DNA of 63,816 bases, the filler included, from Dugesia japonica (Eukaryota), in the NCBI GenBank assembly GCA_001938525.1. It is 6 parts of 6 records of this genome, joined end to end, with 100 filler letters (N's around TTAATTAATTAA, not from the genome) between each part and the next. Parts side by side here need not be neighbours in the genome. Positions count along the whole stretch, not along the records: positions 54,894 to 63,816 come from MQRL01594486.1; 5 more parts are not named here. One strand, written 5' to 3'. Made by a program: the position numbers and the translations under genes. Positions 40,547-63,816 of the stretch are shown here, piece after piece. Position 1 is the first letter of the stretch; each line of letters starts with the position of its first letter. Under the pieces are notes generated by a model, which saw only the letters and a program-made list of their open reading frames with translations, was not told the origin of the DNA and did no database searches.

Positions 40547-42673
40547 AAAAAAATCTATTTAAAGAGCTCTTTGCAAACAATTATATTTAAACATTTGTAT
40601 TTGTGAATAATTTTTAATTATCAGATTCTGTATGTTTTTAAATATTAAAAAATTTAAAAATTTATATATAAATTGGTTTCTTAATTTTATTTTTTTAAAG
40701 TTTATTTATCGATTATTTTAAATACAGAGTAGGCCAAAAGTTACTTAATTTCTATCCAAAGTCGAAATTTGTGAACGCTCTGACGATCAGCATTTAAAAG
40801 ATATAATTTAAAAGGTGTCACTGAAATTTAACGTAAAAATAAAAATTATTTGTTACATTTTGAAATTTTTATTAAAAGAGGTAGCAAGTGTGACTTGGAA
40901 TTAAATAAATTCAAATTGTTTTTTTTTCCTCACAAACGACACCAGAACAGATTTGGAAATTCAATTTAATTAATCAAAAATAATTATCAGTAGGTCGATA
41001 GTGGCGCATGGGGACACCCCAGGGTTTTTTAAGGTCAATTTTACGCGTTTTGATCGGTTGAATTTTTTTGTGTGCCGATGATTTACTCATTACATAATCA
41101 CCTGATATTGAATTTTTTGTTTAAATTGACAGATTTTTTGTGTTTAAATTGATAATTAAATTTTGAAAATAAACTAGTTTTTGGTTTAACGCGGAATATT
41201 ACTCTGAACAAGAATATCAGCAAATAACTTTACACACCAAAGAAAATGAAAAATTTTAAATAATCAAGCACAGTTAAATAAATTTACCTCGAGCAATATT
41301 AAATTCGGTTGCTTCTGGGCAATATTAAAATCATTATCCCCCGAACAGACGTAATATTAATGTTAATATTAGTTGCACCGGGACAATCTTAATAATAATA
41401 ATATATAAGTAAATCAGAACGCAAGATTGATTGTTGATTAAACACATCATCAGTCATTTCAATCTTGATCTTCATTACAAATTAGATCTTAACAAAAAAT
41501 ATTTTTAATTTTAATTAACAAAATAAATTACCTTAAAATGTGCTTTTCATCCGAGTCTCATTCATTACGAGATCGAATAATATCCGCATAGCATGCTTAT
41601 GTTTTTGTTTTTACTATTTTGTCGTCATTATAAAACTAGTGATTTTTCTTTTCTATTCTAAATTGTTTTACTTAGACTTGTTGACTGTTATTTTAACAAT
41701 CAAGGTTCAACTGATTATTAATGTCAGCACTCTTAGCATTCATATTATTTGATTCGCTAAGAATATTACAACATTTTGGTCTCAAGAAAACCTGTTCTTT
41801 TTATTTATTTCTATTATTTTCATCCTTAAACTCTTCTACTACCGAATGTAGATCCATGCTGTACAGAGTGTGGTCTGGTGATTAATTTTAGGTATCTAAT
41901 AATCGATCTTTTACCATCAGTGACAATAACTTTTCTAACTTAATGTTTCTAACTTCTCAGGTAAAGTTATCAGATTCATATCTCACTATTTTCTTGTTAA
42001 CTATACTCCGCCAGCTCAATGTATACCCTGGTTTTGAGGGTATGAAGATATGAGAGTTGGAGGCCAAAGTGGAATGGCTCTGCACTGAGAACAAGCAACT
42101 GAGTAATAGGATACACAGTCGACCATCAACGTTCTCCTCAGTTTCTCGAACCAGAAAAGCACGGAAAATCTTCATAGACTTATCCGAAAATGATATGTTT
42201 GACAACTGAATTCTTGTTACTTTGTCAGCANNNNNNNNNNNNNNNNNNNNNNNNNNNNNNNNNNNNNNNNNNNNTTAATTAATTAANNNNNNNNNNNNNN
42301 NNNNNNNNNNNNNNNNNNNNNNNNNNNNNNAATTTCTTTAAAAATTTTTTATTTTGTTTTGTGTTTTTTTTACATATAATTTATGTTAAAAATATATATA
42401 TTATTTTTTTNNNNNNNNNNNNNNNTTAAAATTCATTCAAAAATGAACTAATTTTACACAATATTAAAAATTAAATTTTTTTCTGAACTAAAAGTTTTTA
42501 AAAGTTTGTAATTACCTGAAATGTAGCAATAAGGTACACAATTTAGTTTTTGAGTAGCTCAAAATGTAAAGTAGAGCATAGTTGATTAAATTGAAATTAT
42601 AGTATGGAGTAGTTGAATAAATTTGATTTTGGTATGGATCACCATAATTTTTATTGTAGTATTTATTTAGTAA

Positions 42674-43204
42674 AATGAAACAGAAACAAATGAAAATGAA
42701 TCGACATCTAACAGTAAACGTGGATCTTGACGACCGAAGTGCGGAGGTACCGGCACAAACAATTACCCAGATCAACCTTTAAATCCTTATTTTACAATAG
42801 AGAAATTGTTGGACAAACACTGCAGAAGCGTAATGAGAAATTCAGATGTATTAAATGAACAATTACAACAAACCCGACAATTAAATGCAAGCCTTGTGGA
42901 GAATCAAAATTTTTATGTGATGCAGATACATCGATTGAATAAGATATTGGAAAATCAGAGACGACAGATTACCGAGAATCAGAATTTTTACCTACAAACT
43001 TTGAGAGGAACAAACAAAATAGTAGAGGATCTAAGACATCAAGTGGAGGAGTTACAAGGCTATAAAGCAGAGCTGGTTTTATCCCAAAATAATCGACTAC
43101 CGAATATTTCCGGCATCCTGAACCCTATCGAGACGAGTGAGAGGGTGTGGTACGGAGAAGAGAGTAATGTATGACAATGGATGCCAAGATGTAGAGTACT
43201 GTAA
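42674..43204 (+). pseudogene. Orphan coiled-coil gene (array unit 1) with internal ENQNFY repeat
   Basis: The frame of ORF 42806-43174 extends upstream to a TTTAG acceptor at 42670 with one internal stop. The product is heptad-rich and contains ENQNFY twice. Confidence 0.55.
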
Positions 43205-43351
43205 ATTATGTGTTAAATAGTAACTGTATTACTATGCGAAAAAAAACATGTATTATAAAAACTAAAAACATTAAAAGTATAGTAAAAGTATATTGACAAC
43301 TATAATTATTTGATCAGCGCTTAATCAGAATAATTCCAATTTGTATATAGA

Positions 43352-43723
43352 ATGTCTGAAGATTTTTGAAGAGTGTGGAGCTGTGTTATGGATACGATAA
43401 TGATGGAGAAATCAAGTTTAGAACAGAAATCAATCGCAGAATTACAACAAATTAATCAAAAGATGAAGCATGGTAATGTGTCATATTTCGAGGAAATATT
43501 TGGTTATCAAAATGCCATCTTGAGAATAGAGGGAGTATTGACAATGCAACAAGCAAATAAAGATGATAAAAAGTGTGGAGAATGTTAAATGGAAGCATTT
43601 TCAGTATTAAATTTACCATACGTGCATGTAGCAGTTTGTCAGAAATGTCATCAAAGAAACGAGTTCAAACAAAGTGTAGTATGTAAACGGCCAATTGAGG
43701 AGTGGTATGTGATGTATCTATGA
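43352..43723 (+). pseudogene. Small protein with C-terminal IAP/MDM2-type RING finger (decayed)
   Basis: Read-through gives MSEDF*RVW...DDKKCGEC*MEAFSVLNLPYVHVAVCQKCHQRNEFKQSVVCKRPIEEWYVMYL*. This fits CxxC-x(n)-P[C>Y]xHxxxCxxC-x8-[C>S]xxCxxPI at the extreme C-terminus. Confidence 0.75.
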
Positions 43724-43924
43724 GTGGGATACATGGTTAAATTGTAAATAAACGCAAATTTAGGATACAGTACAGTTAAAGTAACAAAAGAAACAACTCT
43801 ATACAATTTGTAAATATTAGTCTCAATTAAAATTTGGTTAACCAGTAAATTATATAATTTGTAACTCCCAATGTCTTAATGTGTAAAGATTCAATATTAT
43901 GTTACTTGTATTTTAATTAAGAAA

Positions 43925-44790
43925 ATGACATGCAGATATCAAAATAGTATGAATCGACAACGAGTCGCGATTAATAGATATTGTGAGAAGAGTAACCCGA
44001 CCAACAAAGACAACTCCCGTCAAAGTTACGAATCGAAAACCCATGAGAACAAAGTGAGTGAGCATAAAAACGGTGTAGAGTCACCGAAGTTACAATCAAA
44101 GATAGTCGAACGAGAGAATCAAGTTGAAAAGTTGGAAATCCAATTACAACAATCCAAGTTCAAAACCCAAGGCTACGACAAGTGATTGGAGGGCCTGAGA
44201 TCAGTGGAAAAAGGAATATTTAGCCAAAGAAGAGAAAATCCATCAACTACAACTGGAGCTATCATCCATCCGAAAAAGGCACCTAGAGCAGGTCAAAGAG
44301 TTAGAAACTGAGATCAGAGGGCAGAGTAAAAAGATCAAGATGCTTGAGAAAACAGTGGAGAATAATAATGAAATCCGAATTACCAACCAACGAATGCACC
44401 AAGAAAAAATAAGCAAATTACAGGAAGAGATCGATCGTTTAATAAAAGATACTCAGGACAAAAAATCCGCAAGAGAACAAAATGTTATCGAAATTCAAAA
44501 CCTGGAGAATGCAGTGAAGCACCTCCATGATGAAAATAATTTTCTAAAAGAAACCCCTATTTGAGTACTAATTCTTCCACGTCAAGTAAAAGCTACCAGC
44601 GTAGAACAAATATTTTACACTTATAAAATCCATATGCAACCTGTAGCTCCACAAATCAGTTTATTGGACCAAAGAGCGAATCAGAGAAAGAAGAATCAAG
44701 TGATTCAATCATCCCGCCAATTCACCAATCCAAGTCAATCCAATCAATGGCCTAATTCAGCATCCGAAGAAGATTTATTCTGGCGTCTCT
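43925..44790 (+). pseudogene. Orphan coiled-coil gene (array unit 3), frameshifted
   Basis: Consecutive E/K/Q-rich heptad ORFs at 43925-44185 and 44340-44564, followed by a P/Q-rich tail. Confidence 0.5.
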
Positions 44791-45517
44791 AACCCAGTCG
44801 TTTCGAGCAGTTCTAGGCTGCGTCCGACTCTGTAAATATTGTTCGTATCTAGGTGTTATAACTCAATATATTTGTGTGATTGAATAATTTCAAGTAACCA
44901 AATGTCCTCTGACAGTCCTATATTGTCCATTTGGTCATGTTATTGAACTATAAACGTCCTATTATTTTCAATCTATACCCAACCGATTCAGTGTTCCGCA
45001 GTTCTATGCTGCATTAATACCTATACTATCCTCGAGCCGAAGGTGTCCTCCGAATCCAATCTGTCGATTAAGAGAAGATCCAAACCAGTAGACTTTATGA
45101 CTATTTAGTGATTCCATGGTGATGAGAATTCAACATTTTTTATTGTATTAAAGTGATCAGGTTATTTAAAGTGACAATTATGAATAAAACATTGAATTTT
45201 AAGTGATCCAGTGGTGTGATTGAATATGATAGTAAATCTGCATGTGCATTATTATATTTGATTGAAATAATGTATTTTTAATTTTATCATTTTCTCTTCT
45301 TATTTCTATCTGTGTTTATTTTTATGACCTATTAGTATCTTGCTTGAGGAATCTGTCTAACCTAGGTATGAGTGATAATCGAGCTCTCGTGAATTTCGTA
45401 AAAGGTTAAAAGAAAAAGAATTTTAAGTTTCCAAAAATAGTGAAGAGTGAACACAAAGTTGATGGTCTGGACCAAATTATTGATTATTATGTACAGGATT
45501 ATCATTATTATTATGTA

Positions 45518-45784: not shown

Positions 45785-46976
45785 GGAAATATCGTAAAAA
45801 TAACGAAAAATAAAATTCGGGCGTGGAAGACCCAAATTTTATGTCACAAAATTAAAAATTGTATGCGATAAAAGGAAAAGAAGAATTAAATAATAAAAAT
45901 AAACTACGATATTATAATATTATTTTAAAGGGGTATCTACGACCCGTTTCATTTATTATAAATAACGCTAAATAACGTTTAATATTAATTATATTTTAAT
46001 TGATGCTGGTCCAGTCATCATTCCTTGTCTAGCTGAGGAAAAATAAATCGAAAATAGTCAGCAAAACAGCTGAATCATTTCCTTCCAGACAAAGACTTTG
46101 CATGGAGATAAAGTTGATGATTCTGAAGTCACACGATGTGACTGACGACAACAAAACCTAGCAGGTTGATGTGCACCAAAATAACAAAAAATCATACTGA
46201 GAAAATGAATGCACATCAACAGTGGCTAGGAGTCGATCAATTACAGGGGTGGAATTAGGAAGGGCGAATAATGATTGGCCGGCTAATATGAAGCCACAAT
46301 CTGGAGAAGGAGAATTCAAATAAAATAAAGTGAATTTTTAAATTCAGGCAGAGTTTTTGAATTGAAAACAATTGTGACTTTAAAAAGATTTTTACTTTAT
46401 AAACCATTTTACTTTAAACAGAATTTTTACTTTGAAGAGATTTTTCTAACGAATTTGCGATTAACAGTTGTCATATTATTTTGGGACATTAGATATCGAG
46501 CTAACAACATTAAAAAATTAATTTACCAGATTGTAAAGTGGACCTATAAACTTAAAAGTAAATTTCATTTTTGTTTTAACATGTTAATTGCTCCAATCTT
46601 TATGTACCGAGTGTTCTTTAAGCAATGATGATCGTGCTCCCGAGAATGAAATAGTTATGAGAAAATAATTCGGCAAGAATACCTAAATATGTATTGTAAA
46701 CTTGTCGAGAGCTCGATGATCATGCGTTACGCGAGAACAAGATAGTTTTTGTTTTTGGAAGGAATGGTTTTGTAAATGAGTGCAGTTATGTCTTAAAAGC
46801 TTTTATTGTTTTGAACGAAAATATCAACATCATATAAACGGAATTTGATTTTTCTTTAATTAGTTGATGATTTTCTTTTAATGCTTTCGAATAATAATAT
46901 TTTTTTATTTAATTATATGTTTATTAGATTATTTTAATAATGTGAATAATTCAAGTTGTAGTCATATAATAATAAG

Positions 46977-47601
46977 GACATCTTCTGAGAATTCCGGAAG
47001 ACGGGAGACGAGCGAAGATGGTAGTTTCTAGCTGATATCTTCTCTGGTTCGCCTTCTAGAAATGAGGATGAAGAACAGAAAGGCCGCAGGCTGAAGGAAT
47101 GTCCGCTGTTTATTATTTTTATTCTTATTTGATTGAAAATATATTTAATATTAATAGTAGAAAATTAGATACTTTTTATTTAATAGAAAATAGACAGCGT
47201 ATTTCAAGGCACAGATTCCATTGGTGCTCTCCAATGACGGCGACGACGGGACATTCTGTATCCCCTGGAGAAATTCAGTCGAGCTTCTAGATTATCAAAA
47301 AGCCGTTTACGAGAAGGAGAAACAGGAGATGCGAGCGGGTCAGCAAGTGTTAATAAAGCCTGACATTGAGTTGCGGCGACAATGGAAAACCGTCTATGTG
47401 GAGAAGGAAAAGTTGGAGGTGCAATTGGCACAGCAGAGACTGGAGATATGAGTGATTGCCAGTGAAATGATCGAGCACCGCTACACAATGGAGAAGATCG
47501 AGGGGAAAATTTTAGAGCAGCTGATGGATGATAAGGGGGTCGTGACCGAAGCACCGGACCCCGTGATCATTAAAACGGAATCGTTGTCGACTGTAAAATA
47601 A
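46977..47601 (+). pseudogene. Orphan two-exon coiled-coil gene (array unit)
   Basis: GC-richer coding-like blocks separated by an AT-rich intron-like spacer (~47108-47186). ORF 47221-47451 reads through one TGA to ~47600 and is followed by AATAAA. Confidence 0.5.
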
Positions 47602-47907
47602 ATGTATTGATGTTGTACAAATGAAAGTGTTATTTATTTAATTTCTTAATGTGATATGTATGTCACATTGTGGTTAAAAGAAATTTTAGTGTCTGCAGAG
47701 GCAGTAATAAGTTTAAACGAATTTTTACTTTTTATTTGGCCGTTGTAAAAAACGCAAGCACGGTTTTAATACTGCGTCTTCAATAATTTGCTGTCGTGGA
47801 TAAGCAATTTACCTATAATTTTTGTCTTTTACTTGATTATAATCACTTATCTTAGTTAAACTTATTACAATTAAATTATGACTAAAAAGGTTTTTGTTTT
47901 TTTAGTA

Positions 47908-48228
47908 GTGAATAGATCTAATGAAGAAAAGATGCTGAAAAAAGATGTAATCGCCGCGCAGTAGAGGTGGAAGTAGGAACGGAAGGAGTTAAAACATGAA
48001 ATTTTGAAGCTGTAGGGACAAGTGATGAAGTCTGTCGTGAAATATAATCAGATCAAAGAAAAAGAGCTGTCCCCTCAGCACGCGAACAGGCTGATGGCTG
48101 AGGTTATAAAGACTTACACCGACCGCGAGACCTCAATGTTTATTTCGTTAAGAACACTCTGGTTAAATTACCGATCGCCAGAGGAATCGACCAAAGCAAT
48201 GGAACCAACCGTAGATCCATACGCTTAA
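47908..48228 (+). pseudogene. Orphan coiled-coil gene homologous to 62883-63241
   Basis: Frame AQ*RWK*ERKELKHEILKL*GQVMKSVVKYNQIKEKELSPQHANRLMAEVIKTYTDRETSM, with AATAAA right after the stop. Confidence 0.55.
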
Positions 48229-48564
48229 TAAATGAAGCCGTAGCTGTTAATAATTGAATAAATATTATGGATGTTGATTGATTGGGTCAGTTTAATTATG
48301 AATTTTATTTGTTGAAGTGAAACTATAATATTAAACTTTTACTGAGCGCGTAAAAGTGATTGCTGTCAGGGTTCGTGGATTCTGTGAAAAAGACGCGATA
48401 CCACAAAGTCGCGCTGAACCCGTGGAAAGGAGGGGCACGTCACAGAGGTGATGCAAACTTTTGAGGTTTTTAGGTTGCTCCTAGATACTTCGATAAAAAC
48501 GATAATTATTAAAAGTGAGATCAGAGCAGCTAAAGAAAAAAGTTAAAACATCAAAATCCTAAAA

Positions 48565-50165
48565 ACCCATCAGATATAAAATTGGAATATAGGAAAGAAT
48601 CGCTTCATACAAATGTGGATATGTTGTCAAGGAGTGAATGCGGTACATATGCACAATGTATAATGTTACATGAAGATCCCAAAAGTAGAAATTAAAAACA
48701 AGGATCATAAATATAGTAGATATTCAAGAAAAACAAGGCAATTTTGGTGAGAATGATGAGGGAACACGGATACCTGATGATAAAGTAGAAGATGTTATAA
48801 TGAGGATACATCATTTTTAGTGTCGTGCTGAAGCAAAAAAAGTAGCAGCGTATAAAAAGCATAATTATAATGCAAAACATTTGTAGAGCAAAGTACAAGA
48901 GGTTGTCCGAAGCTGTATAATATGTCAGAAAGCTAAAGTGTTGACAATAAAAACAAAGGAAGAAACAAAAAAGACGCAGCCAGCCGAAATGTATAAACTG
49001 TTATTTATAGAAGTGTGTGGACCACGGCCGGAGACTAGAGTTCGGAAAAAACATGTTCTCGATATAATAGACCAATGCAGTAAGTATGTAGCCTTGATAG
49101 AAATGACAAAACAAGAGGAAGATACCATAAGGAAAGCAATATTGGAGAAGTGGATATTAAAGTTTGGGTGTCCGAAAGAAATTCAAATTTATTGTGGAAG
49201 AGCTTTTGAGTCAAAATCAATGAAAGGTTTTGCAGCTGAACATGGAATTACACTCAGGTTTTCGAGTCCATGTCATCATAACACAAATGGACAAATCGAG
49301 GGATCTGATTAATGCAACACTTAAAGAAAGGAAAACTTCAGATTTAGGTGGATGTTTTGCCTGAAATAGAATTTACCTTAAACGCTACAAAACAGAAAAC
49401 TATCGGGAAAATCTCTGCTGAAATCATATTTGGAAAGAAAATAAGCAAAAAAATGGTATGAAACCAATACTCAAAAAGTGCACAAAGAACAAGAGGAAGA
49501 AATGTTAACCAAAAGACAATTCAAATCGGTGATGAGATCTTAGTGAAAGCTGAAACAAGAAACAAGAACTAAAATCATTGTGAAGGACCCTATAAAATCA
49601 AGAGGAAGATTCATGACAGACGTTACATCCTAGAGGATACAAACAGAAAAAGTCTCGAAAGAAACCTAGAGAAGATCAAAAATTTCTTAAAAAGTGGGAT
49701 GTGAGTATGTTTTAAGCGAGTTGAAATTTTTGTGTGGTTGGTGATCGTTTTTCTTGAAATCTTTTTTGAAAAAGATTTAAATTGAAATGAAAAATTAAAT
49801 GACTAATAAGAAATTGTTTTAAATTTTAATAAGTAAACAGAAAATTTATTTAAAAAATCTGTTTTAAAAAATCAAATGACTAATAAGTANNNNNNNNNNN
49901 NNNNNNNNNNNNNNNNNNNNNNNNNNNNNNNNNNNNNNNNNNNNNNNNNNNNNNNNNNNNNNNNNNNNNNNNNNNNNNNNNNNNNNNNNNNNNNNNNNNN
50001 NNNNNNNNNNNNNNNNNNNNNNNNNNNNNNNNNNNNNNNNNNNNNNNNNNNNNNNNNNNNNNNNNNNNNNNNNNNNNAAACGATCACCAATTTAAAACAG
50101 GAATTTAATTTGTTTAAAAACTCAATTAGTGTTGTTATAGTTTTTTATATTAGTAAATCGTTGTA
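48565..50165 (+). mobile_element. Gypsy integrase region plus 3' LTR (same family as 57102-59590)
   Basis: Integrase core 'IEVCGP..IIDQCSKYV..WILKFGCPKEI..SSPCHHNTNGQIE' and a GPY motif. A PPT-like AAAAGTGGGA is followed by the LTR start TGTGAGTATG at ~49700, similar to 59328. Confidence 0.85.
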
Positions 50166-50243: not shown

Positions 50244-50795
50244 TTATGTTTTCAGGATTATCAGATGCATCTTTTGGTGTTGTTTATATACTAGAATGAA
50301 TTGTATTTTTATAACCATTTTATCTAACAAGTTTTTATTCCATTTTTGATTTCCAACTAATGTAAAATATTTCCACATTTTAGTTTTTAAAGTTCTAATA
50401 AATCTTTCAGTAAAAACTGATTTACTCTCATTTTCTGTATGGTATAATTTAATATCATTTTCTTCAAGAAATTTATCAAAATATTTTGATCTAATTGATG
50501 ATTCCTTGTCAAACCAAATATAATTTGGAATTCTAAAATTTTCTTCAAATATATTTTCATAACCTTCTTTTAATGATTCGTGATTTTTATTAGTCATTGT
50601 AACACAAAAACGAAATCTTGTATATAAATCAATACAAACTAAAATATAACGAGATCCATCACTTGAGTTTTTAATATCACAACCCCAAGTATTATCTTTT
50701 TCTTTTATTATTACTTTTAGGAAATAATCTTTAAATAATTCCTTAGGAAATAATCTTTATATAATTCCTTGGCAAGAAGTTTCTTTGATAATGTT
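50244..50795 (-). pseudogene. Maverick/Polinton (adintovirus-type) retroviral-like integrase
   Basis: 'LLAKELYK...KVIIKEKDNTWGCD..RYILVCIDLYTRF..PNYIWFDKES..IKLYHTENESKSVFTERFIRTLKTKMWKYFT' is the characteristic Polinton integrase signature. Confidence 0.88.
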
Positions 50796-51220
50796 TCTCT
50801 ATTTTTAGGAATATGGCCAGCACCTAAAATAATTTTACCTTTCATTACTAATTTTACTAAACCTCTTTGTAATTTTTTGAAATAGCTGGATTTTGGATAT
50901 TATTTAAATCATGAATTAAATTTACATCAGCTTAATGCCTTGATCGTATATTTTCATCTTTATAAGATAAATCATGTTTAAAAGCTGCTTCATCAACTCT
51001 ATTAAGTGGTTCTTCTTCAGGTTTCAAATTATTATTTTCATCTAATCTTAAATCTAATCTTGTTCATGGACCTGTATAATTATGGTTAAACAAATGTCTT
51101 TCACCTGGATACTTTTCCCAAGTAAATGGTTTTAAAATTGCAGTCATGGTTTATAAGCTAAATGGCTTAATTTTACTGAATAATAATTTCCTGAATCTAA
51201 AGTTGTTTTTGAAACCATTC
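50796..51220 (-). pseudogene. Parvovirus VP1u-like phospholipase A2 (adintovirus PLA2X)
   Basis: Manual translation: PFTWEKYPGERHLFNHNYTGP*TRLDLRL..EPLNRVDEAAFKHDLSY..SRH*AD..KGKIILGAG. It contains the YxGPG Ca2+ loop and the DxxAxxHDxxY catalytic motif. Confidence 0.85.
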
Positions 51221-51224
51221 TATT

Positions 51225-52490
51225 TAAAAATGAAACTTGAATAGATTTATGTGTAATTAGTTTGTTCAACATATTTACTTCCATTTTTGAAACTAATCTA
51301 CATTCTGGAATATATAATTCTAAAGTTGTTTATTTTAAAGTAGCAGCTGTATATTTATCACCGTAAAATAATAATTTATCATTTGTTTGTCTATTACAAG
51401 TAAATTCAATCATTACATTATATAATAATCTATTATAACATTTTAAAAATGCAAACAAATTTTTTAATGAAAAATAACCTTCAAATTTTTTTTAGAATTA
51501 TAAAGTTTCTTTCTTTTATAAAAACCTAGATTTGCTCCCCAGCTAGTAACATCTAAATCTCCTTTGTTTGTATCTGGAATCCATCCTGATAATTCTCCAT
51601 ATATATTTTTATAGGTTGAACTAGTTGAAATAAAATTCAACATTGTTGATGATATTCCAGGATCATTAATTATTTCCACATCTGAGGATCCTAAAGTTAA
51701 TCTCATCGATTTAAATAAACTTGGAAGCCAATTATTTTACAAAGTTATTTTATCTTTGTGAGCATCTGTAACATCAATCTCTATTTTAAAATATAACATT
51801 GAGTTACAAATGTCTAATGGGTTGGTTGACTGTAAAGATTGAAAAACTATATCACCAGAAGGCATTAAATTACTAATTGATCCAGATGAAGGTGAAATTA
51901 TCAAAACAAACTAAAAGTCCAGTTGTTGGATTCCGGATCTTAAAAAATATTTTATCTTCAATACAAACGCCGGTTTCGGCAAAATAGGAGCAGTAATGTC
52001 GCAGAAAGATGTCAACGGCAGAGAAAAGGTGGTAGCATACGAGTCATACTCATTAAACAATAATTAAAGAGGCTATTGCGTGACAAGGAAGGAACTTCTA
52101 GCTATATTTTACTTTTGTAAACATTTTAATTATTATTTATTTGGTAGGAAATTTTGGTTACGCACAGATCACATGGAACTAGAGAAACCTAGGACGTGGA
52201 GGCTGAATGTAGTAGAGAAGAACCCGGACAGCGAGACATAAAGAATGTCAGAAAAAGAAGCCGAGGAGAAATACTCACACACGTGGTTCCGGAAAANNNN
52301 NNNNNNNNNNNNNNNNNNNNNNNNNNNNNNNNNNNNNNNNNNNNNNAAGATTGAAAAACTATATCACCAGAAGGCATTAAATTACTAATTGATCCAGATG
52401 AAGGTGAAATTATCAAAACATCATTTTTAAGAAAAAAGTGTTAAAAATTAATATTATTATCAATATTTAATTTTGTTGCATCAAACATTT
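51225..52490 (-). pseudogene. Maverick/adintovirus major capsid protein (double jelly-roll), truncated; interrupted at 51909-52346 by Gypsy sequence and a gap
   Basis: 'NNWLPSLFKSMRLTLGSSDVEIINDPGISSTMLNF', 'GFYKRKK', 'YNRLLYNVMIEFTCNR' and 'LELYIP' match the Polinton MCP pattern. It is adjacent and co-oriented with PLA2 and integrase. Confidence 0.7.
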
Positions 52491-52805: not shown

Positions 52806-52962
52806 TTATCATTTGCACTGTAATGAAGCCAACTCTCTCGGCTCACATTCGTAGTTATCACTATTACTAATATCGTTGTTTTAATATTCAGATTTCGGAT
52901 AGGTAATATTTTGAATTAATAAATTAGTTATGGATTTGACTTCAATTTTAATCAAATTAACA

Positions 52963-54793
52963 TGGTAACCACGCCTGTTGACCCATTGGCCGAAAGATTA
53001 CTACCAAAGATGTTGAGCCGGACGGACCATTTGGAGGTTTTAATCAATCAATGCCAACGGTATTTTGACATTCTGGCAAAGCCGAAAAGATGCGTGAAAC
53101 GTTAATATACAGAATGATCGAGGAAAATTGGATTGCCGACTAAGAAAGAACGGTAGCACAAGGAGAAGGGTTCCAATCATGATTGAGAATCGCATTTGAG
53201 AAGCCCAAGCAGATTGGGAAGAGATGCTCTGATATAAAAAAGGATCAGAGAGCATCCAGCTATACTTTCGAGTTGTGAAAAGGAAAATTTGAAAATTATA
53301 TGAAAATCAAATAACCGAAAAACAAATGATCGCAAAAGGTTTGGTATATTGCAGTGGCAATGATGAAATGAACAAGGAAGTGGAAATCCGAGAATAAGCA
53401 TCAGTCTAGGATATTGAGACACTAATGATAAAGATGGACGAAGTACAGACGAAAAGTAATTGTAGAATCAATGCAGTACGAAACTATAATGAAGTACTAA
53501 AAGGAAATAAGAGACAAGTTTGGGCAGTTTAACCGAGAACTGACAGGAAGACCAAATGCGGAGAACCAACCAGAAACAAGACAGAAGAGAAAACATTTGT
53601 AAAAAACACTACCAGAGAAATTCACATTAGACAGATAGAATGTTGGTCGTGTCACAAGATGAAAGACATCAGCCGAGAATGTCCGAACAGAGAGATACTA
53701 AAGTGTTTCACGTGTAGACAGGCAGAGCACATTCATTGATTTTGTCCAAATAGCAAGTGTAGAAAGAAAGGACATTACGCGGTAGATTGTCAGATACAGA
53801 GAATTTACAGCAGTAACAACTTGGAGAGGGACGACCACAGACATCAAAACAGAGTATGGTGTGAAAAATATAGAATGAACGGAATAAATGCAGAAGATCA
53901 GGAAGACACGACAAGTTTAGAGAACTACCCAAATAGACAAGCTCTAGTCAATTAAGTACTGTGACTATGATACCCCAAGTGAACGAGAGAAGTGAATTTG
54001 ATCAGGAAGTGGCAAAGAAGGTATATATATTTTTGAAGAGCGAAGGCTTTAGGACAGAGGAAGAAAGAGACAACAATGTGATAGGAGTAATTGGATACGT
54101 TTCCGGGACAATAATAAACTACGAAAAATGCAGGGGAGACCCAGAGTCACGGTTAGGATAGTTAAACAGGTTTTTGAGTGCTATTTAGATACAGGAGCCT
54201 GAATAAACGTGATGAGTTTGAATATAGCAAAGGAGTTGTAAAAAAACTTAAGGAGCTTTTAAGGGATTTGCAATTATCACCACAAATTCATAGAAGGATA
54301 CTCGGAAAAAGCAGGAATTCTGGGAAAGATGTGTGGAAGAACTACCAAGAAACTAGACTGGAATCAAACAGCAGAGAAAGAATTCGAGAATTTAAAAAGG
54401 GCACTTACTAAAAGTCCAGTTGTTGGATTCCGGATCTTAAAAAATATTTTATCTTCAATACAAACGCCGGTTTCGGCAAAATAGGAGCAGTAATGTCGCA
54501 GAAAGATGTCAACGGCAGAGAAAAGGTGGTAGCATACGAGTCATACTCATTAAACAATAATTAAAGAGGCTATTGCGTGACAAGGAAGGAACTTCTAGCT
54601 ATATTTTACTTTTGTAAACATTTTAATTATTATTTATTTGGTAGGAAATTTTGGTTACGCACAGATCACATGGAACTAGAGAAACCTAGGACGTGGAGGC
54701 TGAATGTAGTAGAGAAGAACCCGGACAGCGAGACATAAAGAATGTCAGAAAAAGAAGCCGAGGAGAAATACTCACACACGTGGTTCCGGAAAA
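52963..54793 (+). mobile_element. Degenerate Gypsy element: PBS-like start, gag zinc knuckles, protease, RNase H
   Basis: ..AACA-TGGTAACC at 52963; CWSCHK..ISRECP and CFTCRQAEH knuckles; LLDTGA*INVMS; FIFNTNAGF..IGAVMSQ..YCVTRKELLAI..RTDH. Confidence 0.85.
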
Positions 54794-54893
54794 NNNNNNN
54801 NNNNNNNNNNNNNNNNNNNNNNNNNNNNNNNNNNNNNTTAATTAATTAANNNNNNNNNNNNNNNNNNNNNNNNNNNNNNNNNNNNNNNNNNNN

Positions 54894-56512: not shown

Positions 56513-57101
56513 CGGTTTCATATGTGTATAAGACTCTATTTGATTCATTGCATGTATTATATGACTTTATATTGTTCATTGTGTATATTGTTTTTCTCTA
56601 AAGGTTGAATTATGTGTATTGTAAAAATATATTGAGTTAATTATGTGTATTATAAGACCGCATTAGGTTAATTGTGTGTATTTATTGACTTTATAGGATT
56701 TATTATATGTATTATATGGTTCTGTTGGGTATAATATGTGTATTATATAACTCTATAGATTTTAGTGTATAAGACCTATTGGTTTTTTATATATAAGACT
56801 ATATTAAGTTATTTATGTGTATTTAAGTGACTTTATTGCGGATATTTGTATATTATACGACTATATTGAGTTTATTATATGAATATATAAGGTATATTAT
56901 GACTATATTGGGTTTATTATACTAATTTAACTGTAAGTATGGAGTTTATGATGTGATTTTACTAGGTCAAGTGAGTTTTTTGTGTGCATTTAATGACTCT
57001 ATTTGTTAATTTTATGTATGTTATGTCTTAAAAGATTTATTGTGTGTATTATAAGTCTTTATTAAATTTATTGAATGTATTATATAACTATATTGGGTTA
57101 A
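56513..57101. repeat. Degenerate ~31-bp minisatellite (consensus ~TGTGTATTATAAGACTATATTGGGTTAATTA)
   Basis: Recurrent TGTGTATT..GACT.TATT.GGTT units, roughly 18-19 copies. Confidence 0.7.
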
Positions 57102-59590
57102 CATCATCAGCAATGGAATACGCCATTAATCTGTGTTTGGAAAAAGGAAAAAAGGATATATGATTGTGCTTAGACTTTAGACAGATCAATGCAATAACAG
57201 AAAACAAGCTTTTCCTATGCCAAATGTAGACGAAGTGCTAGATGCTTTAGAAGGTACGCAGTATTTTAGCTCAATAGACTTGAGAAATGCATACTACCAA
57301 GTGAAACTCAGTGAAGATTCGATCACACAAGGGCAATTTTGTTTCAATTGAATGCCTTTTGAAATTGCAACCGCACCAGGTACGTTCCAGGAAATGAGGA
57401 ATAAAGTAATCGGAAAAATAAAAGGAGCGATAGTTGATCTAGATGATATTCTCATATTTACCCCAACAAAGGAGCAACACTATGAAATAATCAATAAAGT
57501 ATTTACAGAAATTAAGAAAGCTGATTTTAAAGTTAATCCAGAAAAATGCCAATTCATGCGAAAGTAGATCAAATTTTTGGGACTCGTTATCAGTAAAGAA
57601 GGTTTCAAAACAGATCCAACTAAAATAGAAGCAATGAAAAACTTTGGTAAACAAAAATGCGTTAAAAAGACGAGAAGCTTTTTGAGAATTCGCAATTACT
57701 ATCGCAAGTTTATTAAAGACTATTCGAAAAAGACTAGATAGCTGGAACATCTGTGTAGTGGGCCAAGTAACAAGAAAATTGAATGGGCGAATGAATTAGA
57801 ATAAGTTTTTAATGAAATGAAAGAAGCACTAATGATGTCTCCAATATTATGTTTTTCAGATACAAATAGAGGATTTATTTTGGACACAGATGCGAGTTTC
57901 GATACGGTTGGTGCTGTACTATTTCAAAAGGACAACAATTAATAAGAAAGAGTAATTGCATATGGGTCACAACCAATGACGAGTCATGAGAAAGAATATT
58001 GTACTACGCGGAAAGAATTGCTCGCAATTTACTACTTTTGTATTCATTTCAAACATTACTTGTATGTGAAGAGATTTATCCTCAGAACAGATCATAAAGT
58101 CATCACTTTTATGCTAAATAACAAGAAGCCGATTACATCACAGTTTCAAACCTGAATTAATTATTTGAGCAGTTAAGATATCAAATTGGAATATAGAAAA
58201 GGATCGCTTCATACAAATGTGGATATGTTGTCAAGGAGTAAATGCGATGCATGTCCAAAATGTTTTATTCCAAATAAAGATCCCAAAAATCAAATATTAA
58301 AAACAAGGATGTTAAATACAGAAGATATTCAAGAAAAACAAGGCGATTTTGGTGAGAATGATGAAGGAAAATGGATATCCGATCATAAAGTAGAAAAGGT
58401 TATAATGATGATACACCATCTTTTGTGTCATGCTGGAGCAGAAAAGGTAGCAGCGTATATGAAGCATAAATATAATGTGAAGCAGTTGTGGAGCAAAGTA
58501 CAAGAAGTTGTCCGAAGCTGTATAACATACCATAAAGCTAAAGTGCTGACAACAAAAACGAAGGAAGAAACAAAAAAGACGCAGCCAGCTGAAATGTTTG
58601 AGTTGTTATTTATAGATGTGTGTGGACCACTACCGGAGACAAGAGGTCGAAAAAAATATGTTCTCAGTATAATAGACCAATGCATTAAATATGTAGCCTT
58701 GATAGCAATAACAAAAGAAGTTGAAGATATCATAAGGAAAGCAATATTGGAAAGTGGATATTAAAGTTCGAGTGTCCGAGAAAAATTCAAGTTGATTTTT
58801 GAAGAGCATTTGAGTTCAAATCAATGAATGATTTTGCAGCTGAACATGGCATTACCCTAAAGGTTTTGAGTCCATATCATCATAACACAAATGGACAAAT
58901 CGAGAGACAGTTTAAAACTATGAGGGATCTGATTAATGTAACACCTAAAGAAATGGAAAACCTCAGATTGGGCGGATGTATTTCCAGAGATAGAAATTAC
59001 CTTAAACGCCACAAAACAGAAAACTATCGGGAAAAGCCCTGCTGAAATCGTATTTTGGAAGAAAATAAACAGAGAAAAATGGTATTTAACCAATACTCAA
59101 AGAGAGCACAAAGATCAAGATAAAGTGATTATGATCAAAAGACAATTCAAGGTTGGTGATGAGATTTTTGTGCAAGTTGATACAAGAAACAAGAACCAAT
59201 ATCGTTTTGAAGGATCCTAAAAAGATCAAAAGAAAGGTTTATGACAGACGTTACATCCTGGAAGATACCAACGGAAAAAGTCTCGAAAGAAACTTAGAGA
59301 AAATGAAACAATTTCTTAAAAAGGGGGATGTAAATATGTTTTGTAAAGTGGGTTGAAATTTTTGTGAGATTGGTGATCATTTTTTTTAAAAAATCTTTTA
59401 TTTAAAAATATTTCAATTATAGATGGAAATTTTATATAACGAAAATTTAGTTTTGAATTTATAGGCTATTAATTAAAAATTAAGATTTTGAATAAACGAA
59501 AATTTAGTTAAATTATTTTTTTAAAATAACTTAAAATGAATTTTAAATAATTTGAAAAATGATCACCAATTAAAACACGGGATTTTAATT
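57102..59590 (+). mobile_element. Gypsy pol (RT-RNase H-integrase) pseudogene plus 3' LTR
   Basis: LCLDFRQIN, SIDL..AYYQ, MPF..ATAPGTFQ, DLDDILI, FILDTDASF, RKELLAI, LRTDHK, HHLLCHAG..C and SPYHHNTNGQIER. The PPT AAAAGGGGGA is followed by an LTR starting TGT at 59328. Confidence 0.92.
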
Positions 59591-59745
59591 NNNNNNNNNN
59601 NNNNNNNNNNNNNNNNNNNNNNNNNNNNNNNNNNNNNNNNNNNNNNNNNNNNNNNNNNNNNNNNNNNNNNNNNNNNNNNNNNNNNNNNNNNNNNNNNNNN
59701 NNNNNNNNNNNNNNNNNNNNNNNNNNNNNNNNNNNNNNNNNNNNN

Positions 59746-59791
<46 letters not shown>

Positions 59792-60029
59792 GTAATAATA
59801 ATTATAATAATAATGATAATAATAATAATAATAATATATATGAGGAAATAATTAGTAATTAATAATATCATCCGATGGAAATTGAGTTATCTGAATATTA
59901 ATATTGAAATTCTAGTATTTCAATATTATTTATCTTATGAAACATGGGTTGTAGAAGTAAAATAAACAATGTCTAAAAATATTAATTGTGATTTGCAAAA
60001 TGATTTACCAATTGAAGATTTACTTAACA

Positions 60030-61400
60030 TGGTGGCAACGGTAAATACCGATTCTATTACAGATAGGTTATTGCCAAAGATGTTCTGCAGAGGAGATAAT
60101 ATTGAAAAATTCATCAAGCGGTGTGAATTCTTTTTAAGCTAAAAACATTACCCATTTGAAACAACAGGAGAGATTAGTCTCTTGTTTGTTAGATGAAGAT
60201 TTGTTGGAAGAATATGCAAAGACGTTGAAAAACCTTGAAGGTTTTCAGGCTTGTTTACGTATGGCATTTGAGAAAGAGAAAGATGTTTTCAAAGATTTTC
60301 AAAATTTGATTAACTACAGGTGTGGAAACTGATATAATTGAGTTTATGCGATTGAAGATTAAGATGTTTATACAAACGATGGATATGAAGTGTTTGAAAG
60401 TGATTCTGAAAGTTAGTACCCAAAAGGCAAGGCTCTGCCAGTAGAGAAGTTTTTTGGAGCCATTCATTGTTAAATGAAGTTAGTAAGTATCCTCAAGGGG
60501 TCGAAAATTGGGATATTATCAGAAAAGTTATAGAAATAGTATACAGGTTCTTAAAGAGGGAAAATTTTGCGAATGAAAGAAAAATAGAATGGGTTGGAAC
60601 AATTGAAACAGAACAGAAAACAAATATTTCGTACCATAAATTGCAAGGCCAACCAAGTATTACGGTATTAATTCAAGGAAATAAAGTAGAATGTTTATTA
60701 GATACAGGAGCTCAAATTAACGTGATGAGTTTGAGTTGTTTTAATAAATTACGAGAAGTAAATTCAGAAATGAGTGATGAAAGATTGCGTTGTGCAAATC
60801 ATAGTACACTTGAAATTGTTGGGAAACTTAGTACTGGAGTAATAATTGATGAAGTTTGCAAAGAGATTACTTTCTTAGTTGCTGAAAGAATAACACCAGA
60901 TCTGATAGGAGGAATATGAACGATGGATGCAGAAAAACCTTGGATATTAACTTATGCAAAAGGTTGATAACAAAGTGAATAAAAAAGTTGAAAATTACAT
61001 TTGAAATATTGTAATATAAGGAGACAAATTAAAAAAGGAGAGTGACTGGCAGAAGCCTTAAATATTTTGTAGGATCAAAAGTATTAAAGAGGATCAACTG
61101 TTATTGAAAATAATTGAAAGTAAAGAAGATGCTTTTATGGCAGATAAATGGGATGTAGGACGCACACATCTGACAAGACACAAAATAATTACCAATCAAT
61201 GTAAACCCGTATAGACAATCAATGAATTTAGAATCTTAAATTAAAGCAGCTATCCAAAACCTTTTCGAAAATAATATTATCCGGAAATGCAACTCTTCAT
61301 GGAGTACCCCATTGATCTCTGTTTGCAAAAAAGGAAAAGAATGACATAAGAATATGTTTGGATTTCAGACAATTGAATGCTGTAACAAAAAGACAAGCCT
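60030..61400 (+). mobile_element. Gypsy gag-protease-RT 5' fragment
   Basis: AACA-TGGTGGCAACGG PBS-like junction; aspartic protease 'CLLDTGAQINVMS'; RT start 'SSWSTPL..IRICLDFRQLN'. Confidence 0.85.
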
Positions 61401-62882
61401 AATTAATAAGCCTAACTAATAATAATTATAATACACACCGACGACCTTCATGGTGCTAGGAAACAAATAGCGCCTGAATTTGATTTAAATTAAAATCTAT
61501 TTATTTTTAACTCCTAGCTAACATGCTGGAAATAAAGTAAAATTAAATGAATACAACCCTATAATAAATAACACCACATAATAGTATTATAATAATATTA
61601 TATATAGTGACGTATAAATAGCGAAAAAGTTAAATCTTAGACATTGAATGAAAAAGCAAGTAATATGTTGCTAATGTATTAGCTTAATGTTACTATATTT
61701 TATAGTAGCGTTATTAAAGTTATTACTACCCATGCCTCAGGCATCATTGCTGTTATTATTGAATGAAAACTTTTATAGCAAACTTTATTAAAATGACAAT
61801 GTAAAGTTAGTAATGCAATTATGATATTTTCCACTACCCACCTTAACTGGTAGGTTCAGGTTCTTGAACATCCCATGGGTTAAATTGATTTTCGTTGTTT
61901 TCAATTATAATGAAGTCATGAGTATTGCCCTTAATAATCATCAAAGACAAATGTGTAAATATTAACTCGGTGAGGGTATGATAATGTGAATCTGTTTTAG
62001 ATATCCTATGTCTGAATTACTCCTATTGACCCTTCAATTAATTCAACGAAAGCGCGAACGATCACGCAAACGGCAATTGATCCGACACCTCATAGCCCTG
62101 AGTCTGGTTATGCATCCCGACGAAACAGATTTGATTTGATTCACCGAGATGTTTCCGTTGACAGCAAAAATGGACATGAATGAGAAATAACGATCGTTTC
62201 GATAATGAAGCTCATGTAGTTGAAATAAAATATAGGATGGTCTAAAGCTCTAATTTTAAATTTTAAATTTGATTGTTTATTGATGTCTTTATTAACATTT
62301 ATAATTAAATAAAATCTCTGTTCTAGGATGGAATCTATATGGGAAAGAATTTTTTATCGTCGAACGCGGCGCATCTTTTTCAGGCGTCACCACAATCCGC
62401 ATAACCGAGATGCCGGAATATTGGTAGATCGCTCAAATTTGCCTCTCGTAGAAGCCGCAGTAGCGTGAATACGGAATTTTGGCGAGAGGCTTAATTTCCA
62501 ACATTGGAGTGGGCCAGTACGCAACCACACTACTGCGTTCTAGTATCAACCTCCGGCCCCACCCCCAGTCGTGCAGGCTTTCATCATTAACTTGCTCTGG
62601 GACGTTAAGGAACCCTCGGGCGTGGAGAGTGCCGAAAACACCGCTCCTGCCACGGACCCTACGACTAATCTACAGTGACTCCTTTGTTTTATGGGTTGAA
62701 TGCAGAAATAAATACGTGTCTTTACTTAAAATAATTTTGCTTCGTTTCCTTCAGGGTTTTAATAAAAGACAATTTTTTAATGTTGTTATAAGTATATTTT
62801 GCTGTCTTAAAATTGGAAAGGATTTCGGGTACTTCTGTAATTTGGTTGATAGTATCTTTAGTAAAATTTTACTATTTTGTAG

Positions 62883-63241
62883 TGCATTCCTCTCTAAATC
62901 GTCCTTCAGCTCCTACTAAGAAGATAAGAGACACCAGCGAGGACCAAGAAATCACTTAGGACCTCTATCGCCTGACAAAGTGACGCTGGGAGGCCGAGAT
63001 GGCCACCGCTAAAGGTAAGGTGAGCCGGTATAAAAAGAAATGCCTAGCATTCAAGGCAGAAGCTGAAGCTTCACATACGCAGGAAAGAGTCTGGAAGGCT
63101 CAATTAGAATCTTTCACTGAGATTATCCGGTCCTTCCAAGACTGAGAGAATAAACTGGTTCAAGATATTCACAAACTAAAATCTGCAATGCCCCTCGAGC
63201 CCTTGATGGTTGACAAGGGTACCCAGATTCCAAGAGCTTAA
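62883..63241 (+). pseudogene. Orphan coiled-coil gene (second array) with C-terminal DKGTQ motif
   Basis: Frame DQEIT*DLYRLTK*RWEAEMATAKGKVSRYKKKCLAFKAEAEASHTQERVWKAQLESFTEIIRSFQD*ENKLVQDIHKLKSAMPLEPLMVDKGTQIPRA*. There is a TAG acceptor at 62882 and AATAAA at ~63258. Confidence 0.55.
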
Positions 63242-63362
63242 TAGTTGTCGTTGTATAAATAAATGTTTTCATATTAAAATTTATTTTAATTCTCTTACTT
63301 TTGCTTAGTTAATTTGGCCTATCTGTCGCAGATCGAATAAACTAATGTTATATCTTGTTTAG

Positions 63363-63745
63363 TGCCGCGAATCACTTTCCCAAACAACTTGAGAAGATGC
63401 CACCGAATTATGCAACGTCTCTTAGTCGTGCGATAACTTAAGCGAAAGACCGACCGAGCACTTCTGAAACACCTTAATCAGAGATATCAGTTAATAAAAA
63501 GGCTTGACTCGATAGTCAAAAGGCAGAGTAGTCTGGCCGAGCAAACTAAGGCCCTTGCACAAGAAACCACTTTACTGTTGCAGCGCAAAATTGATTTTTA
63601 AAAACAGTATATTGCAGATCTCTCCCGTCAATTAGGAAACCCTACATGGGTCCAATGGGATGACAATGACGATTCGGCGTCGTTCAATTTTTTGACGACT
63701 GATCCAGCCCAGTTGTTAGACCCGGGCGCATTGGATCTCATCTAA
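63363..63745 (+). pseudogene. Orphan coiled-coil gene (second array) with acidic tail
   Basis: Frame ..IKRLDSIVKRQSSLAEQTKALAQETTLLLQRKIDF*KQYIADLSRQLGNPTWVQWDDNDDSASFNFLTTDPAQLLDPGALDLI*. There is a TTTAG acceptor at 63362 and AATAAA at ~63793. Confidence 0.55.
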
Positions 63746-63816
63746 TTTTTCTGTAAAATACAGTTTTCATTGTTCGACTTATTCTAGCCTTTAATAAATT
63801 CGTGATAATAGGGAAA

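What the first reader, a model, noticed from the sequence alone, without database searches (positions are those of the whole stretch)
61980..63800. Second small-gene array on a different scaffold, sharing a diverged protein family with the first
Four plus-strand units (~62001-62230, 62327-62680, 62883-63241, 63363-63745) have the same acceptor / coding block / AATAAA layout. Unit 62883-63241 aligns without gaps to 47908-48228: RW is followed exactly 44 residues later by E in EIIRSFQD*E versus EVIKTYTDRE, with identical E, K and E at offsets 3, 8 and 32. I see no DNA similarity. This suggests an old, diversified family of multi-gene cassettes rather than a recent duplication.
Basis: seen in the sequence. 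Interest (0 to 1): 0.75.

Follow-up and report, generated by a model that had tools for sequence, protein, structure and literature searches.

The report
Decayed small-gene cassette in flatworm retroelement
Four short, broken protein-coding genes lie head to tail, each with its own splice-acceptor-like and poly(A)-like signal; they are likely the accessory cassette of a large retrotransposon in a likely flatworm genome, but the claimed protein kinship with a second such array scores no better than chance.

Summary
The array is real. In all four units the proposed plus-strand frame is the best of six. Each unit starts at an AG acceptor, ends with a stop and has AATAAA 17-48 nt later. Spacers are 121, 204 and 121 nt. 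GC3 is 0.46-0.51, against 0.22-0.23 in host genes and 0.22-0.32 in flanking gypsy pol. Each frame has 2-3 internal stops, so this copy is decayed.

The shared protein family is not supported. The register exists but holds 11 identities in 99 positions. 65 of 1000 plain shuffles, 159 of 1000 heptad shuffles and 36 of 279 unrelated charged pieces score as well. No homologue was found in any collection searched.

A host gene groups with flatworms. The array abuts a truncated Ty3/gypsy gag-PR-RT. The other array lies 200 nt upstream of a polypurine tract and LTR-start-like motif. Best reading (0.4): the 3' accessory cassette of a complex LTR retroelement, expressed by splicing one leader to successive terminal exons. 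Main rival (0.25): an operon resolved by spliced-leader trans-splicing. No expression data were obtained.

The parts
62001..62229 (+). U1: acceptor, own ATG at 62008, basic ORF of about 60-65 codons, broken at 62137 (62188 may be the terminal stop), AATAAA at 62224
   Evidence: (7 of 300); first five ATGs of the exon are all in frame
62327..62712 (+). U2: acceptor, ATG at +2, 116-codon ORF with Arg-rich N-terminus and Pro-rich/acidic tail, broken at 62466 and 62541, AATAAA at 62707
   Evidence: (16 of 300); fold uninformative, pLDDT 46
62883..63241 (+). U3: acceptor, exon starts TG in the coding frame, 118-codon coiled-coil ORF broken at 62957, 62981 and 63143; poly(A) hexamer 17 nt after the stop
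   Evidence: 0 of 300; heptad periodicity 0 of 300
63363..63798 (+). U4: acceptor, exon starts TG in the coding frame, 126-codon ORF (basic N-terminus, probable coiled coil, acidic tail) broken at 63434 and 63599, AATAAA at 63793; the window ends 18 nt later
   Evidence: 0 of 300; heptad 16 of 300
61400..61570 (+). tentative 3' end of a further, truncated unit followed by ATTAAA/AATAAA; AAT-repeat-like junction with the gypsy RT at about 61395-61433
   Evidence: coding signal not significant (75 of 300)
61648..61990 (+). tentative AT-rich hydrophobic reading frame (5 stops in about 115 codons) after a TATA-like motif at 61613; doubtful
   Evidence: (27 of 300)
59969..61395 (+). decayed Ty3/gypsy gag - protease - 5' part of RT, cut abruptly where the array region begins
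   Evidence: Pfam PF13975, PF13650 and PF00077 above cut-off; gag N-terminus matches the gag at 52962, 0 of 2000 shuffles; RT start aligns to 57100-57200
59942..59968 (+). LTR-end/PBS-like junction and short leader with a donor-like site (intron would start at 59957, exon ending in A); candidate common leader, weak
   Evidence: such sites occur 1.13 per kb, P about 0.03 in 25 nt, post hoc; 24 donor-like sites lie in 59900-62000
47906..48232 (+). A3, the compared unit of the first array: same layout and phase as U3; homology not demonstrated
48424..48572 (+). polypurine tract plus imperfect LTR-start-like motif 200 nt downstream of the first array; this segment ends in CA at the junction with a gypsy integrase piece
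   Evidence: 2 matches in the window, the other being the gypsy PPT at 59318; 0.2 expected; pattern chosen post hoc. Junction

Best explanation
The four units are broken, head-to-tail, single-exon protein-coding genes of foreign composition that likely formed the 3' accessory cassette of a large Ty3/gypsy-type LTR retroelement, and each would have been expressed by splicing one shared 5' leader onto its own acceptor and ending at its own poly(A) site. SHOWN: coding frames, strand, acceptor/stop/AATAAA layout, about 120-nt spacers, GC3 contrast, decay, abutting truncated gypsy gag-PR-RT, and no homologues in the collections searched. INFERRED: (1) the carrier is an LTR element, from the PPT/LTR-like motif behind the sister array and co-orientation with gypsy pol at both loci; (2) expression is by alternative terminal exons, because every unit has its start at the acceptor: U1 and U2 have their own AUG, and U3 and U4 begin with TG in frame, which a leader ending in A would complete to AUG; (3) the products (Arg/Lys-rich N-termini, coiled coils) are Rev/CERV-like RNA-handling or particle-associated factors; (4) full-length genomic RNA must read through the internal poly(A) sites by a regulated route. 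The sister array at 46-48.5 kb is probably the same kind of cassette from another family; protein kinship is unproven.
For: Coding signal. AATAAA in 4 of 4 units, p^4 about 0.0015. T-rich spacers, 175 T against 121 A, p=0.002; 2 of 3 spacers lack strong donors and none has TATAAA between hexamer and acceptor. An in-frame start at the acceptor in 4 of 4 units, per-unit chance about 0.075; TG in frame has chance 0.017 per unit and is seen in U3, U4 and 47908 (post hoc). GC3 is unlike host genes. Stop density of 1.6-3.1 per 100 codons is like the gypsy RT, 2.2. PPT plus LTR-start-like motif after the sister array. Precedents: spliced extra ORFs 3' of pol in rotifer LTR elements (PMC5408684, passages), spliced CERV export factor of Cer1 (PMC10309623, passages), giant planarian gypsy elements with accessory ORFs (PMC6431247, sections).
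Against: No splice junction or transcript was observed. The window ends 71 nt after U4's stop, so no PPT or LTR can be seen for this array; the PPT motif belongs to the other array, is imperfect, and was found with a post hoc pattern. GC3 of the array (about 0.5) differs sharply from the adjacent gypsy pol (0.22-0.32), which argues the neighbour may be a different, nested element. The junction holds a short AAT repeat and could be a mis-join. The two integrase-bearing gypsy copies in the window go straight from IN to PPT and LTR with no array. Several sense poly(A) sites are a liability for an RNA-replicating element. The 5' 39 codons of U3 hold 2 stops in the main frame against 1 in another frame, so its phase is not secure. 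Alternative AGs exist near U3 and U4. The U2-U3 spacer has 2 donor-like sites.
Confidence: 0.4

Rival explanations
1. A mobile-element-borne operon: one polycistronic pre-mRNA cut into single-gene mRNAs by 3'-end cleavage coupled to spliced-leader trans-splicing at each acceptor.
For: Hexamer-to-acceptor distances are 103, 176 and 105 nt, and stop-to-acceptor distances are 121, 204 and 121 nt. These match the roughly 100-bp operon peak in the flatworm Macrostomum and in C. elegans (PMC8629364, passages) and the 300-bp-or-less flatworm criterion (PMC12582326, passages). A host gene groups with flatworms, 98/96. Planarians have SL trans-splicing (PMC10899757, passages).
Against: The flatworm SL ends in AUG (PMC12582326), which would be out of frame with U3, U4 and 47908. 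U4 and 47908 have an out-of-frame AUG before the first in-frame one, and U3's first in-frame AUG is 117 nt in. The shared in-frame TG start is then unexplained. Compact packing of poly(A) and branch signals alone also gives about 100 nt.
Confidence: 0.25
2. A fragment of an endogenous DNA virus or DNA transposon (Maverick-like or unknown) with an adenovirus-late-type transcription unit, nested among unrelated gypsy debris.
For: Internal poly(A) sites cost a DNA replicon nothing. GC3 and CpG differ from both host and gypsy pol. Stop codons overlap AATAAA in the sister array. Junctions with gypsy are abrupt.
Against: No viral hallmark gene is linked to the array. The Maverick piece in the window has GC3 0.14. 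No hits in Pfam above cut-off, in PHROGs below E 0.03, or among viral contigs beyond one 13-residue match. A PPT/LTR-like motif follows the sister array.
Confidence: 0.17
3. A pseudogenised host gene cluster, host operon, or array of alternative last exons of a lineage-specific host gene.
For: Host-type processing signals; flatworms have operons (PMC8629364, PMC12582326).
Against: GC3 is about 0.5 against 0.22-0.23 in three host ORFs. The units have no introns, decay is uniform across all of them, the context is pure transposon debris, and no homologues were found.
Confidence: 0.08
4. Independent single genes with their own promoters, or internal exons of one multi-exon pseudogene, with acceptors or AATAAA arising by chance in AT-rich DNA.
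For: AATAAA is common (3.5 per kb). U1 and U2 acceptors are only in the top 15%. Acceptor-like sites also occur on the minus strand at block ends.
Against: GC 3' boundaries include the stop in U2, U4 and 47908. The only donor-like sites near unit ends are poor or lie after the stop. Minus frames score worse in 4 of 4 units. Spacers of about 120 nt leave little room for promoters.
Confidence: 0.1

Closest known systems
Burro/GYPSM1 giant Ty3/gypsy elements of planarians (as reviewed in PMC6431247; the primary paper was not held)
   Same: Likely the same host group; gypsy context; accessory ORFs outside gag-pol; decayed copies with stops.
   Different: Burro's extras are mostly domains in a polyprotein of about 4,900 aa or upstream ORFs (MATH, BIR, BCL2, env). 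None of these domains hit here. The adjacent gag-PR-RT is compact. Separately polyadenylated 60-130-codon genes are not described in the review.
Vesta LTR elements of bdelloid rotifers and errantivirus-type spliced ORF3 (PMC5408684)
   Same: Extra ORF 3' of pol, typically from a spliced message, some with coiled coils.
   Different: One extra ORF of 220-600 aa (PMC5408684), presumably ending in the LTR (inference); here four or more genes, each with its own AATAAA, and no TM or env features in U1-U4.
Cer1 CERV of C. elegans (PMC10309623) and retroviral Rev/Rex (recalled)
   Same: Spliced accessory protein of an LTR element with basic and zipper motifs, solving genomic-RNA export; a functional analogue for the Arg-rich and coiled-coil units.
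   Different: No sequence similarity tested or found; CERV is multi-exon and overlaps gag.
Terminons, giant Penelope-like elements (PMC6431247)
   Same: Many co-oriented ORFs, including coiled-coil ORFs, in a giant retroelement.
   Different: Defined by hammerhead ribozymes and telomeric attachment; no Rfam hit in the window, no hammerhead core in this array, no PLE RT seen.
SL2-type and flatworm operons (PMC8629364, PMC12582326)
   Same: About 100-nt gap between poly(A) site and next acceptor.
   Different: Known operons hold conserved host genes; here orphan genes of foreign codon use inside transposon debris.
Adenovirus major late transcription unit (recalled, no call)
   Same: One leader spliced to successive acceptors with several poly(A) sites.
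   Different: DNA virus; no adenoviral or Maverick gene is linked to this array.

Membership tests
Shared protein family U3 / 47908-48228 | alignment score above shuffled and unrelated coiled-coil controls | tested here: not met
   65 of 1000, 159 of 1000; 36 of 279 natural pieces; BLASTP none; hhalign 0.29%
Shared protein family U3 / 47908-48228 | profile-profile match from genome-wide copies | not testable with these tools
   no genome held; no relatives found
Ty3/gypsy LTR retroelement (carrier) | gag-PR-RT-RH-IN in the same unit as the array | tested here: inconclusive
   gag-PR-5'RT abuts the array co-oriented but is truncated and differs in GC3
Ty3/gypsy LTR retroelement (carrier) | PPT and 3' LTR downstream of the array, paired LTRs, target-site duplication | tested here: inconclusive
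   the window ends after U4; a PPT plus imperfect LTR-start motif follows the sister array only, with no second copy in the window
Burro giant elements | giant gag-env-pol polyprotein with MATH/BIR/BCL2/ankyrin domains | tested here: not met
   no such Pfam hit in the 13 proteins scanned; the adjacent gag-PR-RT spans only about 1.4 kb. This does not exclude that the array is a detached accessory region
Burro giant elements | DNA similarity to Burro/GYPSM1 library sequences | not testable with these tools
   no repeat library held
SL-resolved operon | intergenic gap of 300 nt or less on the same strand | tested here: met
   121, 204 and 121 nt
SL-resolved operon | spliced leader on the mRNA of downstream genes | not tested
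   no read data were obtained
Terminon / PLE | hammerhead ribozymes between ORFs, PLE RT | tested here: not met
   0 Rfam matches at gathering score; no core motif in 61300-63816
Maverick/Polinton or other endogenous DNA virus | pPolB, DJR capsid, ATPase or TIRs linked to the array | tested here: inconclusive
   none adjacent; the array runs to the window end; the Maverick piece at 50.2-51.7 kb has a different composition

The most novel reading that the evidence does not exclude
Flatworm genomes harbour a lineage of 'complex' metaviruses that carry a long 3' cassette of five to nine orphan accessory genes, each with its own acceptor and poly(A) site. They are expressed like a DNA-virus late unit, with the start codon completed at the splice junction, or as an operon that hijacks host spliced-leader trans-splicing. 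Different families carry cassettes diverged beyond recognition.
Probability: 0.3. Interest if true: 0.75.

Novelty: new variant of a known kind. Interest (0 to 1): 0.5.

Why it matters
LTR elements normally carry at most one or two extra genes and use a single poly(A) site in the LTR (general knowledge). A cassette of many separately polyadenylated accessory genes would show a new way to expand a retroelement genome. It would pose a testable problem: how full-length RNA escapes the internal poly(A) sites. It may also explain part of the unannotated internal DNA of giant planarian retroelements. If the SL reading holds, it would be a mobile element exploiting host operon processing, which my searches did not find described. 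This copy is dead, and the homology claim that drove the first score is unsupported.

Tried and rejected
HOMOLOGUE SEARCHES, all blank.
- 5.8-billion protein set: U3 0 of 2 candidates, U2 0 of 22; near lengths only.
- 1.84-billion representatives, run only with the sister-array unit 47200-47598: 1 hit, a low-complexity repeat protein P0127, rejected.
- Viral contigs: U2 gave one 13-residue match, L001, rejected as chance and not examined further; U4 gave 0 of 30 stretches. Metagenome contigs: U3 0 of 111, U4 0 of 381.
- Pfam: no unit reached a cut-off. PHROGs best E 0.03. PDB best E 0.52.
- U1 was searched only in Pfam and PHROGs; U4 was not searched in the two large protein sets.

OTHER TESTS
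- Single-sequence fold of U2: pLDDT 46, not used.
- All-against-all hhalign of 16 unit translations: best probability 2.8%.
- Minus-strand reading rejected. Alternative genetic code rejected, because all three stop types interrupt the frames.
- Hammerhead or structured RNA: none; the hairpin before the PPT-like motif has z 0.03. No tRNA. No DNA similarity between spacers. A bacterial promoter scan was uninformative.
- Sequencing runs: 7 of 24 listed runs (3 studies, organism A) hold 0.21-0.31 of the words and 1 run of organism B holds 0.06; none was laid, so they are not used as evidence. No RNA holder listed.
- Earlier scan findings: nothing in 6 look-ups.

LITERATURE
- Searches were made; none listed a paper describing this layout.
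- The primary Burro and Terminon papers were not held.
- No supplements were read; planarian repeat libraries in supplements or Repbase could already hold this element.

Full report
Context. The window is AT-rich animal DNA made of short scaffolds joined by N44-12 nt-N44 linkers; one linker at 54794-54893 separates the two arrays. A domino/p400 helicase fragment at 32136-32810, on another scaffold, has animal best hits of 50% identity or less over most of its length. It groups with five parasitic flatworms at 98/96, sister to them together with one unnamed protein (26 rows, 25 chosen from 120 listed hits; long branch). A free-living flatworm host is therefore likely but not proven. No genome is held.

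The array is real. Four GC-rich blocks (GC 0.43-0.51) alternate with AT-rich spacers. The plus-strand frame proposed for each block is the best of six by amino-acid likelihood; 7, 16, 0 and 0 of 300 shuffles reach it. Codon periodicity is reached by 6 of 2000 shuffles, and the chosen frame set ranks 2 of 81. Stop counts alone were not significant. Each block begins at a pyrimidine-rich AG. The GC change point falls within 1 nt of that AG for U3 and U4, and 31-46 nt downstream of it for U1 and U2. AATAAA follows the stop by 19, 29, 17 and 48 nt, against a background of 0.198 per window. TGTA lies just upstream of the hexamer in 2 of 4 units (background 21 of 372). Stop-to-acceptor spacers are 121, 204 and 121 nt and unrelated in sequence. 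They are T-rich on the coding strand (175 T, 121 A). Each frame holds 2-3 internal stops of all three types, a density like the neighbouring gypsy RT. This is neutral decay, not a variant code.

The shared protein family is not supported. The register described is present but holds 11 identities in 99 positions. Local score 37 is reached by 65 of 1000 plain and 159 of 1000 heptad-preserving shuffles, and an unrelated coiled-coil ORF of the window scores 39 against U3. The full-overlap score is reached by 437 of 5000 and 1540 of 5000 shuffles, and by 36 of 279 charged natural pieces. BLASTP gives nothing and hhalign gives 0.29%. In its favour, it is the best full-length register, and both units share phase and first exon bases. 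U3 has strong heptad periodicity (0 of 300) and 47908 does not (130 of 300). I put true homology at about 0.25. What the arrays do share is layout and composition: GC3 0.46-0.51 and 0.54-0.61, against 0.22-0.23 for host ORFs, 0.22-0.32 for gypsy pol and 0.14 for the Maverick piece.

No relatives were found in the protein, viral, metagenome, family or structure collections (not every unit was searched everywhere, see Tried and rejected). Weak Pfam hits of U3 are to coiled-coil families, below cut-off. U1 and U2 have Arg-rich stretches, with 5 and 6 Arg in 12 residues.

Carrier. Upstream and co-oriented lies a decayed Ty3/gypsy gag-protease-RT start (59969-61395), cut in the RT N-terminus at a short AAT-like repeat. 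The sister array is followed by an abruptly starting gypsy integrase piece. In between, 200 nt after its last clear unit, lies a polypurine tract with an imperfect LTR-start-like motif. The only other match to that pattern in the window is the true gypsy PPT, and 0.2 matches are expected (pattern chosen after seeing it). This suggests that such arrays sit at the 3' end of LTR elements, in the env position. The present locus may then be an internally deleted element, or two nested ones. Against this reading: the GC3 contrast with the adjacent pol, the two array-less integrase-LTR ends in the window, and the cost of internal sense poly(A) sites to an RNA replicon.

Mechanism. All four units have their start at the acceptor. 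U1 and U2 carry an in-frame ATG at +8 and +2. U3, U4 and 47908 begin with TG in the coding frame and lack an early in-frame ATG. Chance is about 0.075 per unit for either arrangement and 0.017 for TG in frame; these figures are post hoc and should be discounted for the choice of AG. A common cis leader ending in A would complete AUG at the junction and leave U1 and U2 unaffected. A donor-like site with that property lies between the LTR-end-like junction and the gag ATG (59957), but such sites are common. The flatworm spliced leader ends in AUG (PMC12582326, passages) and would be out of frame for these three units. That is why I rank cis-splicing to alternative terminal exons (0.4) above an SL-resolved operon (0.25), although the spacing fits the roughly 100-bp operon peak (PMC8629364, passages). 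A DNA-virus-like carrier (0.17), chance or independent genes (0.1) and a host cluster (0.08) remain. Protein roles (Rev/CERV-like RNA handling, oligomerising adaptors) are inference from charge and heptads only. No transcript evidence was obtained, so splicing, polyadenylation and expression are all untested.

What is known. Papers seen: PMC6431247, passages and parts 3-4 of 8 (Burro, Terminons); and passages only of PMC5408684, PMC10309623, PMC8629364, PMC12582326, PMC10899757, PMC11410931, PMC8532177 and PMC6880638. The primary Burro and Terminon papers were not held, and no supplements were read. Nine searches listed no description of an LTR element or virus of flatworms with an array of separately polyadenylated small genes. 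This does not show absence from subscription journals or repeat databases. The adenovirus late unit and Rev/Rex comparisons are recalled.

Verdict. A real, decayed, orphan multi-gene cassette of foreign composition, probably part of a large mobile element. The headline homology is unsupported. New variant of a known kind; interest 0.5.

Noticed in passing
window 42670-44800: A third group of plus-strand orphan ORFs (coiled coil 42731-43171; Cys-pair-containing 43352-43723 with acceptor and AATAAA; coiled coil 43930-44790), GC3 0.30-0.38. It is separated from the first array by an (ATT)n-gap-(TAT)n break and may extend it to about nine genes. Two of these ORFs share a 20-nt start at 80% identity.
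   Followed up: partly
window 46003-46320: A further unit of the first array with its own ATG 46 nt after a TATA-like motif, ending near AATAAA-like sequence; weak coding signal, 43 of 300.
   Followed up: partly
window 48424-48572: PPT plus LTR-start-like segment ending in CA at the junction with a gypsy integrase piece.
   Followed up: yes
window 57100-61395: RT-RH-IN, PPT, LTR (with an N gap), then gag-PR-RT of a related but different gypsy family: a tandem sharing one LTR, or a scaffolding join.
   Followed up: partly
window 50247-51736 (-): Maverick/Polinton fragment: rve integrase above cut-off and a weak double-jelly-roll hit, very AT-rich.
   Followed up: no
window 51835-52420 and 54407-54793: 100% identical duplications next to gaps, likely assembly artefacts; similar near-identical pairs flank several 50-N gaps.
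   Followed up: no
window 56530-57100: Degenerate AT-rich tandem repeat region upstream of a gypsy RT.
   Followed up: no
window 4849-6066 (-), 9737-10393 (+), 26772-27200 (+), 32136-33551 (+): By eye: a multi-pass membrane host ORF, a non-LTR endonuclease-like C-terminus and a DDE/hAT-like transposase piece (labels recalled, not tested); and a domino/p400 helicase tail.
   Followed up: partly
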